Of a stretch of 64,000 nt of DNA, positions 5,260-26,861 are shown one piece after another. The stretch spans positions 20,584,001-20,648,000 of the forward strand of contig CM022677.1 in the NCBI GenBank assembly GCA_012295275.1, given 5' to 3'. The position numbers were made by a program, and so were the translations under genes. The notes beneath the pieces are model-generated. The model saw nothing but the letters and a program-made list of their open reading frames with translations. It was not told the DNA's origin and made no database searches. The stretch comes from Chrysomallon squamiferum. Taxonomy: Eukaryota > Animalia > Mollusca. Position 1 is the stretch's first letter, and each line of letters starts with the position of its first letter.

Positions 5260-6688
5260 ATGGGTATTATCGTCTTAATATCGATTATGTTAACTATCCC
5301 AGCAGTATTTGCACAATGTCCTTCACAATGTCATTGTCACAGCGGTGTTTTTAATCATGAAGTCATTTGCTCGGAATTACCCAATTTATTTCCCAATCTG
5401 TCCAGTCTGGAACAAGTAACAAAGCCTATTCGACTTCATATACAACTCCATCCTTCCAGGACTTTATCGAAATCAGATTTCCCATTGAATTCGACAATTA
5501 ATATTCTAAAAATTAAGTCCAAAGCTAACCCGTCCATTGAAAGCGAGGCTTTGATTCGATTAGCACCTTCATTATCAAATTTGAGTGTTGAAAATGCAGG
5601 ATTATCATTTAAAGACAGAATGACGTTTTTAAAAGGACTGATGAAGCTGAACAAGCTTGTACTGAGCAAGAACCAGCAAATGGAAGGGGTTCTGCATCAA
5701 TCCTGTTTTTCTAATCTGAGTCTCATCTCTCTGGAGGACATACAGCTAGACAACTGTAATCTGACATATATAAGACAATTCGTTTTCAAAGATTTAGAAT
5801 CACTTCGAACTATAAATCTGAATTCTAATAGGCTAGAAAGTGTCGTTCCAGCTTTGGATCATATCAGAGATCTGATTCGTGTTGATTTGGGAAACAACAG
5901 CATCAAGATGATTCGGAATGAAGACTTCAGAGGACTTGGCAAATTAGAAACGTTGATACTAAGTGATAATCAACATTTAACTTTTGAACCAAACTGTTTC
6001 GCAGAATTAAAGTTTGTTTTAGAAGAGCTTATGTTGCGAAACTGCAAACTTGATAATGTACCGAAATGCATTCGTAATTTCACCAAATTAAAAAAACTCG
6101 ATCTTGCTGACAATCCGCTTACATCTTTTACTAGAGAGTCTCTCGCAGGAGAAATGTGTCTCGAGGAACTTGATGTTAGTGGAACAAACTTTCCATTGTC
6201 ACCAACAGTTTTCAGTGCACAAAAAGACTATTTGAGAAAATTGTCACTAAACAGGCGAAATTTAATTGCAGTTCCGACAGGAACTTTAGAAAATTTACCA
6301 AATCTTGTAACAATTAATTTGAGAAAAAACAAAATTAAAACTGTACCAGGAAACGCTTTTCAAGGCTATGCTATAACTAATGTGGACTTGTCTGAAAATC
6401 CTGTTACTACAGTCGATGCGAACTTTTTCAGTAGTATTGGTTTTCATCTTTCTGTTGGCCTCAAGAAAACTAAACTGGAAGAAGTGGATTTTATACTTGA
6501 ATATAAAAGAGACAAATTTCGTAAAATTGACTTGATGGGTACAAATCTTGTGTGTAGCTGTAATCTGTATAAAATCATGCTTGCTTTACCTAAGGAGACA
6601 CTTCACGGATACTGCATGGATGGGCTGAGGAAAGTATTTTTTATGGAGCGGTCGAAATTTTATTTACGAAATAAGTACAAATGTGATC
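5260..6688 (+). CDS. Copy 1 LRR exon: signal peptide, LRRNT, LRR array, LRRCT-like cap
   Basis: Signal peptide [31 protein letters not shown]...VICS; repeated LxxLxLxxNxL; cap NLVCSCNL..YC..KC. Acceptor ttctag at 5213-14 (45 nt 5'UTR), phase-1 donor GATC|gtgagt at 6688. Confidence 0.95.
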
Positions 6689-24600: not shown

Positions 24601-26861
24601 TACCATAATTCCTTATGTTTTAACTTCCATCTTTTTCTTTATCTGCTTTAAGATTGCATAGGTCCTACTGAAAAAAAAAAAAAAACAAACACGAGGATAA
24701 ATATCATTTAGTACATCAGTTTACTAGTTTATTATATTTAATTTTATTTTGTTTTATTGTTTTTAATTTTATTTATTTAGTTAGTTTTTGTTTATTTGTT
24801 TATTTGTTTATTTATTTATTTGTTTATTTATTTATTTCTGTTTTTCATTTGTATGGTTTCTTTATGTTAGCTTTTACAGTTATTTTGAACTCAATACATT
24901 TATTGATTCATTTACACATTAATTATTTAATTATTGCTATTTATAAAGGTTTCGATGCGAAAGGTATTGATTCTGCTGAAGGTAAGAAAACCTACCAAGT
25001 CGGTATGAATAAAAATAGATATTTAACTTTTATTGTGTGTACATAGTATTTGTGTATTTTTCTAAGAGGAATTGATTATTTCAAATTATTTTTATAAATA
25101 ACTGAGCAAAATGTCCAGTCTGTGATTCAGTTCCTGGTTCATAAAATGATATGAAAAAGAAAGCAATACTATAGTTATGATAGTAATATAGTAATACTGA
25201 TAGTTGAAATAAAAACATTGAAAGAAATAGCAACCAACCAACCAACCAAGAGACTAAGAAGACAACACACTCAGAAGTAATAAATAAAATAAATGCACTT
25301 AATATAGATTAAATAGGACAAAACAAAAAATAAAAATGAAAGAAAAATGCAAATATGTTTTTGTGTCTGAATATGTACTCACTTGTCTGCAAAGTCTAGA
25401 ATGATATGTTTTGGCAGTGTTGTTTACAACTATCGGCCATTTACGCCAGTTTCAAATATCACTAAATAAACAAAGTATCCAAGTGTAAGTCTAAGACTAA
25501 AACTGAATTGTCTTCCCTATATCGCTGGTAAAAGGAATGAATATGATTAAGAGCATATAACAACAACAGCAGCAATAGCAGGAGCAACAACAAAAACAAA
25601 TATTGTAGCAGTAGTAGTATTAGTATTGTTTTATTTGTTGTTTTTATTGTTTGTTTTATTAATTTCTGATTATTTGTTTCGTCTTTTATCTATTTTTCGT
25701 CTTAATTTTTGTATATTATATTGTATTTATTGTTGTTTCCATTTTTTGTTACAGATTCGAGAGGACTTGTGAAACAACATACTTCTACTGGTAAAATTAG
25801 TAGAAATAAATACATATATACACAGATATATAGAGACAGAGAGAAAGAGACAGAAAAAAAAATAGAGCTAGAGTGATTTATCTATCTATGTATCTATCTA
25901 TATATATATGTTTGTGTGTGTTTGTGCAGAGAGAGAGAGAGAGAGAGAGAGAGAGAGAGAGAGAGAGAGAGAGAGAGAGAGAGAGAGAGAGAGAGAGAGA
26001 GAGAGAGAGAGAGAGAGAGAGATTAAATAAGACAATTTGAGGAAGTAAGGCCTTTCACATAGTAAATACACAGTTTCTTATTTTATTTTTTATAGATAAG
26101 AAGAGAGAAAATACGAATACTCTTCTGGGTAAACAACTTCTGCTTTATTATAAACAATTAAACGTGAACAAATTTAAAAGTTAATAAAAATAAAAGGTAT
26201 ATATTTATGTTCGTTTATTAAACATGCTTTAATTGATTACAATTATTAGGAATTGTCGATGCTATAGAATATTTCTGATGTGCAGTAGGATGTTAGAATG
26301 TAATGTATTTTCTGATTTACTGTAGCACATGATACTCTTTAATAGGATATTTTTAAAAATTACAATTATTTTTCTAGGTATGCCATATCAGACATTTTAT
26401 CTGGGTTTGGCGGTGCTTGCTGTTTTTACCATGCTGGCTCTTTTTATGATTTTGAGGTAAGTTTGTAGGTTAGAGAAAATAAATAAAGAATTATTAAGTG
26501 AAATAGTATTGACAATATACATGTACACACAAACATACATTCACATACACATACACATACATACATACATTTACATATACGTACGAACAAACATACATTT
26601 CATATATATGTCGTTGAACTTTTAAACAAAGTAAAGGAATAAAAAAGAAAAAGAAAAATAAATAAAATAAAACATGAATTTTGTGTCTAAATAAATTAGA
26701 AATGTATATTTTGCATCTGATATTCTTATCATCTCAGGTTGAGAGCAAGAACATTAAATGTGTTAGAAGATAAACAAAATGAAAGCAAAGAAGATAAGTT
26801 TGGTGTGATGAATCCAGCTTTCGATTCTCATGACAAATCGTCGATTAAGAGTGAACTCTAG
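5260..26861 (+). CDS. Copy 1: LRR + 6xTSP1 + long microexon-encoded stalk + TM + NPxF/PDZ tail receptor (~1216 aa, 36 coding exons)
   Basis: join(5260-6688,7717-7908,8133-8177,8495-8692,8884-8898,9267-9458,11407-11598,12066-12080,12401-12595,12895-13086,13492-13524,13886-13906,14679-14711,15067-15099,16 array microexons 15638..24034,24516-24548,24949-24981,25755-25790,26096-26128,26378-26456,26738-26861) = 3651 nt, open frame, all GT-AG. Confidence 0.85.
7717..7908 (+). CDS. Copy 1 TSP1 exon T1 (not in ORF track)
   Basis: LQENDGWTSWTLFGITRCTVTCGEGHTAQIIVRKCIPSTGACKGSSSVLYLASCNPDPMLVPCP; WxxW, CxxTC, 6 Cys; 192 nt, phase 1-1. Confidence 0.8.
8495..8692 (+). CDS. Copy 1 TSP1 exon T2
   Basis: VDGGWSSWFYDDVIQCSVTCGTG...RTCTNP...GKPC...TGFSCD; 198 nt, tcag|...|gtgtgt. 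Confidence 0.9.
9267..9458 (+). CDS. Copy 1 TSP1 exon T3
   Basis: [23 protein letters not shown]...[15 protein letters not shown]...CDTRATCP; 192 nt. Confidence 0.9.
11407..11598 (+). CDS. Copy 1 TSP1 exon T4
   Basis: [23 protein letters not shown]...RQCSNPSPSNGGREC...CDTGVKCG; 192 nt. Confidence 0.9.
12401..12595 (+). CDS. Copy 1 TSP1 exon T5 (not in ORF track)
   Basis: [65 protein letters not shown]; 195 nt. Confidence 0.9.
12895..13086 (+). CDS. Copy 1 TSP1 exon T6
   Basis: [23 protein letters not shown]...RECTNPSPSYHGKLC...CNTGISCD; 192 nt. Confidence 0.9.
15600..24550 (+). repeat. Intragenic tandem array: 8 units of ~1.1 kb, each carrying two 33-nt coding microexons (A and B)
   Basis: A exons start at 15638, 16739, 17887, 19001, 20114, 21220, 22337, 23442 (ESTA[E/Q/L]NIDTNQ). 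B exons start at 16200, 17347, 18462, 19575, 20680, 21797, 22912, 24002 (GP[G/D]E[N/K]AIDNEK). Introns are near-identical apart from poly-A and (TTTA)n lengths. Confidence 0.95.
26378..26861 (+). CDS. Copy 1 TM exon (26378-26456) and cytoplasmic exon (26738-26861)
   Basis: [27 protein letters not shown] | [40 protein letters not shown]. Confidence 0.9.

What the first reader, a model, noticed from the sequence alone, without database searches (positions are those of the whole stretch)
6688..26378. Every exon between the LRR and the TM exon is phase 1-1 and a multiple of 3, so the ectodomain is a fully combinatorial cassette system
Seen: in copy 1 all 33 internal exons (192-198, 15, 21, 33, 36, 45 nt) are symmetric, so any subset can be skipped in frame. 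The same holds for every copy. A-type donors are weak (gtaata), B-type are consensus (gtaagt), and one B copy (18462-18494) has -1 G changed to A. In-frame tandem acceptors exist at 8133/8157, 13886/13895 and 62678/62666. Known: phase-1 symmetry is normal for TSP1 modules, but long symmetric microexon runs define Schistosoma micro-exon genes, which diversify by skipping. Inference: large isoform space per gene.
Basis: partly seen in the sequence, partly recalled or inferred. Interest (0 to 1): 0.8.

Follow-up and report, generated by a model that had tools for sequence, protein, structure and literature searches.

The report
Fast-evolving modular mollusc receptor cluster
A tandem cluster of genes for predicted cell-surface receptors, likely from a mollusc, is built of frame-preserving exons that differ in number between copies and were likely swapped between them, with an excess of protein-changing mutations in some outer modules that likely varies what the receptors recognise; large-scale exon skipping in RNA remains untested.

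Summary
The phase pattern is real. Copy 1 has 34 internal exons, not 33 (a 30-nt exon was missed), and all 69 internal exons of four plus-strand copies are phase 1-1. The 'combinatorial RNA cassette' reading is not shown. Only one microexon could be tested in RNA contigs, and it was included. The A donors are no weaker than the TSP1 donors, in-frame extra AGs lie near 46 of 69 acceptors, and microexons make up only 8-23% of the coding sequence. Class 1-1 symmetry is the norm for extracellular modules. The cassettes demonstrably vary at DNA level: TSP1 pairs were triplicated, stalk exons were gained, deleted or decayed (53-261 aa stalks), and exon relationships among copies are mosaic (p=2e-12). 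The genes encode a predicted signal peptide, an LRR domain, one furin-type site (in the 30-nt microexon), six TSP1 modules, an acidic stalk, a TM helix and a short tail. Between copies 1 and 2, TSP1 modules 4-6 differ at 40 codons, all changing the amino acid (p about 1e-4), while the LRR is under purifying selection. The LRR's relatives are stand-alone molluscan LRR proteins; no LRR+TSP1 relative was found. Verdict: a likely new lineage-specific, diversifying recognition-receptor family of a known kind.

The parts
231..2459 (+). Copy 0, 3' part only: stalk exons 231-263, 685-717, 1213-1248, 1598-1630; TM exon 1881-1959; tail exon 2336-2459
5215..6688 (+). Copy 1 LRR exon (ATG at 5260): signal peptide plus capped LRR domain, 476 aa, ends in phase 1
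   Evidence: model pLDDT 90, pTM 0.86; RNA contigs start matching at 5213 with 21 further letters upstream, so a 5' UTR intron precedes it
7183..7212 (+). 30-nt microexon encoding the only R-x-K/R-R furin-type site of the protein (residues 479-482); also in copies 2 and 3
   Evidence: spliced joint 6688>7183 GT..AG in RNA contigs of X1 and X2
7717..7908 (+). TSP1 module T1 (odd type); acceptor 6 nt upstream of the one used in copies 2 and 3
   Evidence: the RNA contig continues past 7212 with letters matching 25 of 30 from 7717 (compared by eye)
8133..8177 (+). 45-nt linker microexon (30 nt in copy 2, 36 nt with a GC donor in copy 3)
8495..8692 (+). TSP1 module T2 (even type)
8884..8898 (+). 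15-nt linker microexon
9267..9458 (+). TSP1 module T3 (odd); copies 2 and 3 are closest here
11407..11598 (+). TSP1 module T4 (even); start of the block where copies 1 and 2 are closest and differ only by amino-acid-changing codons
12066..12080 (+). 15-nt linker microexon
12401..12595 (+). TSP1 module T5 (odd)
12895..13086 (+). TSP1 module T6 (even)
13492..15099 (+). Stalk microexons 13492-13524 (33 nt), 13886-13906 (21), 14679-14711 (A0), 15067-15099 (B0)
   Evidence: the first is a donor-less remnant in copy 2; no homolog of the 21-nt exon was found in copies 2 and 3, nor of the 33-nt exon or A0 in copy 3
15638..24515 (+). Array of eight 1074-1148 bp units, each holding one 33-nt A exon (starts 15638, 16739, 17887, 19001, 20114, 21220, 22337, 23442) and one 33-nt B exon (16200, 17347, 18462, 19575, 20680, 21797, 22912, 24002); adds 176 aa of acidic stalk
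   Evidence: units differ at 11-38 of 898 columns
24516..26128 (+). Membrane-proximal stalk microexons 24516-24548, 24949-24981, 25755-25790, 26096-26128
26378..26456 (+). TM exon (phase 1-2)
26738..26861 (+). Cytoplasmic tail exon, about 40 aa, with NPAF and a C-terminal S-E-L
   Evidence: motif names recalled
29525..41531 (+). Copy 2: 1024 aa, 16 internal exons, 67-aa stalk
37392..37424 (+). Copy 2 remnant of the 33-nt exon at 13492; donor replaced by an (AG)n run (deletion or assembly fault)
38115..38134 (+). Copy 2 dead A exon: 13-nt deletion (20 nt left) and donor GT changed to AT
45369..55712 (+). Copy 3: 1006 aa, 15 internal exons, 53-aa stalk, shorter tail
58850..63522 (-). Divergent paralog, 3' part only: TSP1 63522-63340 and 62666 (or 62678)-62475, candidate microexons 61927-61895, 61338-61297, 60988-60971, 60486-60454, TM 60144-60066, tail from 58954 with NPAF; its LRR, if any, lies outside the window
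   Evidence: microexons are candidates from a crude scan

Best explanation
This is a tandem family of genes for predicted single-pass surface receptors (LRR, a likely furin cut site, six TSP1 modules, acidic stalk, short tail) whose phase 1-1 exons differ in number and ancestry between copies, likely because they are duplicated, deleted and exchanged at the DNA level, while selection likely diversifies the TSP1 modules for recognition of a changing partner. Shown by sequence: the architecture, symmetry of all internal exons, exon gain and loss between copies, discordant exon relationships, and an excess of amino-acid changes in T4-T6 of copies 1 and 2. Shown in RNA contigs: transcription and inclusion of the furin microexon. 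Inferred: (1) a stand-alone molluscan LRR exon ending in phase 1 was joined to a TSP1-stalk-TM cassette, and only symmetric exons could then survive duplication or loss, so symmetry is the footprint of DNA events and needs no skipping; (2) unequal crossing-over and gene conversion among near-identical, microsatellite-rich copies make the mosaics and the 1.1-kb array; (3) furin cuts off the conserved LRR, which acts as a cap or pro-part, shed or loosely held, leaving the variable TSP1 rod on a spacer of variable length; (4) the rod binds a microbe, parasite or non-self cell and is internalised through the NPAF tail. Most transcripts likely include most exons; skipping, where it occurs, would mainly trim the stalk.
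For: 69 of 69 internal exons are 1-1. The TSP1 tree splits odd from even modules, 100/98, so a two-module unit was triplicated. Stalks are 261, 67 and 53 aa; two dead exons in copy 2 lack donors. Eight array units differ at 11-38 of 898 columns in a patchwork. Site patterns flip from T3 (copy 1 odd 26, copy 3 odd 4) to T4 (6, 50), Fisher p=2e-12. T4-T6, copy 1 vs 2: 46 base differences, 40 of 190 codons differ, 0 of 40 silent against 8.5-10 expected in simulation (P at most 1e-4); Fisher p=1.4e-4 against synonymous sites and 2.9e-4 against flanking introns (48 of 981). LRR dN/dS is 0.33-0.50. One furin-type site per protein, same place in 3 of 3 copies, and in a further paralog seen in RNA contigs. 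The LRR aligns end to end with stand-alone molluscan LRR proteins that end in a hydrophobic tail. [quoted passage not shown]
Against: Pooled over all six TSP1 modules dN/dS is not above 1 (1.21, p=0.21; 0.73; 0.78). The T4-T6 block was singled out after seeing 18 module comparisons, although p survives an 18-fold correction. Synonymous differences there are also lower than intron differences (p=0.02), so conversion tracts or constraint on RNA sequence may contribute. With three sequences, a rate change in one copy can mimic part of the mosaic signal. RNA was laid on only 1 of 34 internal exons, in contigs of one study. Cleavage, ligand and function are untested. The organism is inferred from 27-41% identical relatives, and the tree gives the window's LRRs no supported sister.
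Confidence: 0.62

Rival explanations
1. One reading: the ectodomain is a combinatorial RNA cassette system like schistosome micro-exon genes, each gene giving many isoforms by skipping TSP1, linker and stalk exons, perhaps per cell.
For: All subsets are in frame. 27 exons of 36 nt or less in copy 1. One GC donor and one donor with -1 A. 1-1 exons are 21% of alternative against 11% of constitutive human exons (PMC3632108 Table 3). In-frame extra AGs (78) are more frequent against out-of-frame ones (91) than a 1:2 ratio, although repeats and acidic codons inflate this.
Against: The tested microexon is included in both RNA runs that hold the gene, and no skip joint is listed. Donors are not weaker in microexons than in TSP1 exons. 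None of 8 exons of 27 nt or less has the upstream UGC of regulated neural microexons (motif recalled). Skipping near-identical A/B exons would change length only, not sequence.
Confidence: 0.13
2. The family is a structural or adhesion protein set (matrix, shell, mucus or gamete surface). TSP1 variation tunes binding among self molecules or between sperm and egg rather than to microbes, and exon turnover is largely neutral.
For: The TSP1 profile is closest to thrombospondin-1, UNC5 and properdin. A/B exons vary at the same rate as the whole unit (5 of 66 against 67 of 898 columns), as a neutral spacer would. No TIR or kinase-like tail. Gamete-recognition proteins also evolve under positive selection (recalled).
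Against: Tandem multi-copy organisation, mosaic exons and several paralogs in the same RNA runs fit recognition clusters; a purely neutral model does not give 40 of 40 amino-acid-changing codons.
Confidence: 0.2
3. Part of the picture is an assembly artefact: copies 1 and 2 are haplotypes or chimeras, and the eight-unit array is mis-expanded.
For: The region is full of microsatellites; one exon remnant ends exactly in an (AG)n run; no read evidence covers the array.
Against: Every array unit has its own differences, at least 11 of 898 columns from any other. Copies differ by 7-11% in LRR protein and by far more in T1/T2. All three ORFs are intact over 1000 aa or more, and errors would not avoid silent sites.
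Confidence: 0.05

Closest known systems
Schistosoma micro-exon genes (MEGs)
   Same: Runs of short symmetric exons, signal peptide, multigene family, raised dN/dS (PMC8293314 passages).
   Different: MEGs consist mainly of exons of 36 nt or less and are reported only in schistosomes. Here such exons are 8-23% of the CDS, they encode linkers and a spacer, folded LRR and TSP1 domains dominate, and skipping is not shown.
Biomphalaria polymorphic transmembrane clusters PTC1/PTC2
   Same: Mollusc clusters of diverse transmembrane genes with independent tandem duplications, proposed as pathogen receptors (PMC10875847 passages).
   Different: Domains listed there are FN3, C-type lectin, Ig and others; 'thrombospondin' and 'TSP1' occur 0 times in that paper's main text. 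Orthology was not tested, and no resistance phenotype is known here.
Hydractinia Alr2 and sea-urchin Sp185/333 (SpTransformer)
   Same: Polymorphic surface or immune genes diversified by point mutation, or by repeats, duplication and deletion in STR-rich clusters (PMC8282982, PMC5103432; search listing and start of abstract only).
   Different: Different domains; no binding specificity or allelic series is shown here.
Platelet glycoprotein Ib alpha (recalled, not looked up)
   Same: Type I receptor with an N-terminal LRR domain on a stalk whose length varies by a tandem repeat.
   Different: No TSP1 array or furin microexon; its stalk repeat is mucin-like, while this stalk is acidic (D+E 22-25%, S+T 14-15%) and each repeat is a pair of exons.
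Stand-alone molluscan LRR proteins (Haliotis, Aplysia, Babylonia, Patella, Argonauta 'chaoptin-like' or 'ALS-like' entries)
   Same: End-to-end collinear LRR domain with shared cap cysteines, 25-41% identity.
   Different: They stop soon after the LRR with a hydrophobic C-terminus (0-9 residues follow it; GPI-like by inference) and carry no TSP1.

Membership tests
Schistosoma MEG | Coding sequence mainly of exons of 36 nt or less | tested here: not met
   22.9%, 9.5% and 8.4% of the CDS in copies 1-3; definition from PMC8293314
Schistosoma MEG | Short exons are symmetric | tested here: met
   69 of 69 internal exons
Schistosoma MEG | Signal peptide, secreted or surface-located | tested here: met
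   N-terminal hydrophobic peak in copies 1 and 3 (copy 2 fell under the 2.0 cut-off) and one TM peak in all three; hydropathy only
Schistosoma MEG | Protein variants made by exon skipping | tested here: inconclusive
   1 of 34 internal exons tested in RNA contigs; included, no skip listed
Schistosoma MEG | Restricted to schistosomes, no homologs elsewhere | tested here: not met
   LRR relatives are molluscan; TSP1 modules match solved TSP1 structures
Schistosoma MEG | Raised dN/dS | tested here: inconclusive
   Met for T4-T6 of copies 1 and 2, not for all TSP1 pooled or for the LRR; the signal is in domain exons, not microexons
Neural (Srrm4/eMIC-type) regulated microexons | Exon of 27 nt or less with a UGC just upstream (recalled definition) | tested here: not met
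   0 of 8 such exons have it at -21 to -4
Neural (Srrm4/eMIC-type) regulated microexons | Neuron-specific inclusion | not testable with these tools
   No tissue-resolved raw reads were offered
TSP1 (thrombospondin type 1) module | Six cysteines, tryptophan and arginine stack; profile match | tested here: met
   Six C, two W and one R invariant in 20 of 20; Pfam TSP_1 in 10 of 20 at E up to 0.01; profile to thrombospondin-1 E=1.3e-19
Class 1-1 exon-shuffled modular protein | Modules flanked by phase 1 introns, with internal duplication | tested here: met
   PMC8001218
Polymorphic transmembrane recognition cluster (PTC/Alr-like) | Tandem single-pass TM paralogs with diversified ectodomains | tested here: met
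Polymorphic transmembrane recognition cluster (PTC/Alr-like) | High allelic diversity within the species | tested here: inconclusive
   An RNA contig differs from copy 1 T1 at 5 of its first 30 letters, but allele and paralog cannot be told apart
Polymorphic transmembrane recognition cluster (PTC/Alr-like) | Genetic link to resistance or self/non-self recognition | not testable with these tools
   No phenotype data
Furin-processed receptor | Conserved R-x-K/R-R site between domains (consensus recalled) | tested here: met
   One site per protein at 479-482 in 3 of 3 copies, and in a further paralog in RNA contigs
Furin-processed receptor | Cleavage shown on the protein | not testable with these tools
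   Needs protein work

The most novel reading that the evidence does not exclude
A mollusc recognition-receptor system diversified on two levels: germline exon-scale shuffling and positive selection create many TSP1 rods, and each gene also makes a cell-specific repertoire by combinatorial skipping of TSP1, linker and stalk exons, with the furin microexon acting as a splice switch between a shed and a tethered LRR. It would serve to tell symbionts or pathogens apart.
Probability: 0.12. Interest if true: 0.8.

Novelty: new variant of a known kind. Interest (0 to 1): 0.45.

Why it matters
Exon symmetry alone is ordinary. What is worth attention is an LRR-furin site-TSP1x6-stalk-TM receptor family, not found in the protein or paper searches run, which shows the marks of an arms race in its TSP1 modules and exon-scale exchange between copies. 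It gives a concrete, testable candidate for how a mollusc recognises microbes or non-self (the RNA libraries holding it are labelled metatranscriptomic), and it catches the assembly of a new receptor from a stand-alone LRR gene. If combinatorial skipping were also shown, it would be a MEG/Dscam-like system in a new phylum.

Tried and rejected
No whole genome is held for this window, so family size and other loci are unknown. Three word-index protein searches (best 120 rows seen in each) and the full HMMER scan (best 150 of 26529 seen) gave no close relative; a TSP1 profile run over all 437 proteins then stored hit only the window's own module. Long LRR proteins crowd these lists, so this is weak evidence of absence. 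ESM Atlas gave only generic LRR clusters; the TSP1 query did not complete. The fold search gave generic LGR4/5, TLR, Toll and LINGO matches (TM-score by query 0.31-0.68), nothing specific. A metagenome scan for transcripts found one 18-residue match, L001, E=6e-5, not followed. RNA could be laid only on the LRR exon and the first microexon, and only as contigs; run X4 had nothing laid; every other exon, including the array, is untested in RNA. Summed contig depths were not used as copy number or expression. A complex prediction of LRR with TSP1 module 1 never ran, so nothing is known on binding. Paper searches for the architecture or for cephalopod/mollusc microexons found no description (two searches were empty); the library lacks most subscription papers and I opened no supplements. 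The original MEG paper is not held. Earlier scan notes: none. Rejected: weak A donors, special tandem acceptors, MEG membership, neural microexon programme. No codon site-model program was available; selection rests on counting, Fisher tests and simulation.
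Full report
WHAT IS THERE. The window is AT-rich, microsatellite-rich animal DNA holding a tandem gene family: the 3' part of one copy (copy 0, 231-2459), three whole copies (5260-26861, 29525-41531, 45369-55712) and the 3' part of a divergent paralog on the minus strand (63522-58850). Copies 1-3 give stop-free ORFs of 1226, 1024 and 1006 aa. Each has a hydrophobic N-terminus, a 476-aa single-exon LRR domain (Pfam LRR_8 E=9e-35; confident model, pLDDT 90), a 30-nt exon, six TSP1 exons with linker microexons, an acidic cysteine-free stalk made of microexons, one TM helix and a tail of 32-41 aa. 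The TSP1 call rests on six invariant cysteines in 20 of 20 modules, Pfam TSP_1 in 10 of 20 and a profile match to thrombospondin-1 at E=1.3e-19.

THE OBSERVATION. Copies 2, 3 and 0 add 16, 15 and 4, so 69 of 69 are symmetric. The donor letters and the three tandem acceptors are as described. Their interpretation does not hold up. On a crude nine-position match to a recalled consensus, A donors score 7, like the T1/T3/T5 donors, and D/E donors score 5-6; 30 of 76 donors lack +5 G; the B copy with -1 A still scores 8. Another in-frame AG lies within 30 nt of 46 of 69 acceptors. In-frame AGs (78) against out-of-frame ones (91) exceed a 1:2 ratio, but without the 16 A/B repeats the counts are 42 and 63 (my count from the table), and the two plus-strand examples are not kept in copies 2 and 3.

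WHY THE EXONS ARE SYMMETRIC. [quoted passage not shown] An exon can be duplicated or lost without breaking the frame only if it is symmetric, and the window shows such events. The 18 TSP1 exons split into odd and even types (support 100/98), so a two-module unit was triplicated. Copy 1 has eight 1.1-kb units, each with an A and a B exon, differing at 11-38 of 898 columns in a patchwork. Stalks are 261, 67 and 53 aa. Copy 2 keeps a 33-nt remnant without a donor and an A exon with a 13-nt deletion whose donor is also destroyed; this one non-multiple-of-3 exon is dead. Relationships change from exon to exon: in T3 copies 2 and 3 are closest (94%), in T4 and T5 copies 1 and 2 (93-94%); site patterns 26:4 against 6:50 give p=2e-12. 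I read this as gene conversion or unequal crossing-over (inference). So the cassette system is real, but what is shown operates on DNA.

RNA. Three runs hold the LRR exon, two on record as RNA, from one study, all as contigs; a fourth of the same study was added and held next to none of it. On 5150-7600, contigs of X1 and X2 join 6688 to 7183 (GT..AG), run through the whole 30-nt exon and continue with letters matching 25 of 30 from 7717. X3, which covers the introns, lacks this joint. This confirms transcription, the missed microexon and the shifted T1 acceptor, for an allele or close paralog. Other contigs in both runs leave the LRR with a 3-nt insertion not present in copies 1-3 and continue into a different exon reading D-(N/S)-R-R-R-K-R-N-A, so at least one more paralog is expressed and also includes its furin exon. 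No LRR-to-T1 skip is listed, but contigs drop rare forms, 47 loose ends were not shown, and 33 of 34 internal exons were not covered. As a prior, Table 3 of PMC3632108 (section read) implies that about 36% of human 1-1 exons are alternative (my arithmetic). Some skipping among 34 exons is therefore likely; a fully combinatorial use is not shown. Skipping A/B exons would alter only stalk length, as they are near identical.

First, the 30-nt exon carries the only R-x-K/R-R site of each protein, at residues 479-482 in 3 of 3 copies, although its other letters differ among the copies. This points to cleavage between LRR and TSP1 (consensus recalled; cleavage untested). Second, selection differs by domain. 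The LRR has dN/dS 0.33-0.50. In T4-T6, where flanking introns of copies 1 and 2 differ at only 48 of 981 columns, 40 of 190 codons differ and all 40 change the amino acid; 39 of 46 base changes are at codon positions 1-2; simulation expects 8.5-10 silent codons (P at most 1e-4); Fisher p=1.4e-4 against synonymous sites and 2.9e-4 against introns. Differences in T3, T4 and T6 fall between the fixed W, C and R framework, most densely in the last third of the module. Against this: pooled TSP1 dN/dS is 1.21 (p=0.21), 0.73 and 0.78; the block was chosen after inspection of 18 comparisons; and synonymous changes there are fewer than intronic ones (p=0.02), so conversion or RNA-level constraint may add to the signal. 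Third, the LRR aligns end to end with stand-alone LRR proteins, named ones from Haliotis, Aplysia, Babylonia, Patella and Argonauta and an unnamed one at 41%, which end in a hydrophobic C-terminus and have no TSP1. This suggests a mollusc and a lineage-specific fusion; the tree does not resolve a sister.

MECHANISM. Most likely (0.62): a pro-receptor is made from mostly fully spliced transcripts, cut by furin, and presents a conserved LRR as cap or shed part and a variable TSP1 rod on a spacer; variation in the rod, produced by germline exon exchange and selection, changes which microbe or non-self surface is bound, and the NPAF tail (motif recalled) drives uptake. Architecture, exon turnover, mosaicism, excess amino-acid change and inclusion of the furin exon are shown; cleavage, ligand, uptake and splicing of the other exons are inferred. 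Rivals: adhesion, matrix or gamete role with neutral turnover (0.2); combinatorial skipping (0.13); artefact (0.05).

COMPARISON AND NOVELTY. It is not a MEG: exons of 36 nt or less make 8-23% of the CDS against 'mainly' in the definition (PMC8293314, passages). It works like polymorphic transmembrane clusters such as Biomphalaria PTC1/2 (PMC10875847, passages) and, more loosely, Alr2 and Sp185/333 (listing and abstract starts only) or GPIb alpha with its repeat stalk (recalled). No LRR+TSP1 relative appeared in the rows seen from four protein searches, and five paper searches found no description; both are weak negatives, and supplements of mollusc genome papers, which I did not open, may list the family.

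Noticed in passing
window 34351-35074: Insertion in the T3-T4 intron of copy 2 only, flanked by TA with inverted ends and a broken reading frame resembling the N-terminus of a Tigger/pogo transposase (resemblance recalled, not searched).
   Followed up: partly
window 48050-48085: 36-nt linker exon of copy 3 has a GC donor where copies 1 and 2 have GT; the best single candidate for real skipping.
   Followed up: partly
window 7717-7908: Copy 1 T1 has lost the acceptor used by copies 2 and 3, uses one 6 nt upstream, has a competing out-of-frame AG 5 nt inside, and lacks part of the NP..NGG loop; the RNA contig lacks that competing AG.
   Followed up: partly
window 55616-55712: Copy 3 tail stops early, after NPAFDSH, and lacks the C-terminal S-E-L/I of copies 0-2, a possible PDZ-binding end (motif recalled).
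   Followed up: no
window 15638-24034: All 5 variable positions in the A and B exons change an amino acid, but the exons vary at the same rate as the whole unit (5 of 66 against 67 of 898 columns), so no selection can be claimed.
   Followed up: yes
window 14679-14711, 24516-24548, 53682-53714, 53908-53931: A0/A2-type stalk exons place a tyrosine among acidic residues, a possible sulfation context (recalled); the expanded A copies have lost the tyrosine.
   Followed up: no
window 10658-10832, 35103-35278, 50554-50719: A 175-bp intronic block is kept in all three copies (88% copy 1 vs 2, 78% copy 2 vs 3) with no conserved exon ends; possibly regulatory or only part of a conversion tract.
   Followed up: partly
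window 8884, 12066, 33336, 35937, 49070, 51807: All six 15-nt exons are preceded by a (TTA)n-like run and a TTAAT/TTAAC a few bases before the AG, a possible close branch point.
   Followed up: no
window 63679-63999: A 165-bp near-perfect tandem duplicate at the window end, in the intron upstream of the minus-strand TSP1 exon.
   Followed up: no
window 5150-7600 (laid runs): 254 contigs of X3 and 92 of X2 were laid, spread over all identity bands, and one expressed LRR form has a 3-nt insertion absent from copies 1-3: the family is larger than the three whole copies seen.
   Followed up: partly
L001:2305-2358: An 18-residue match to the LRR N-cap in a metagenome contig (E=6e-5 among candidates); probably a generic cap.
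   Followed up: no
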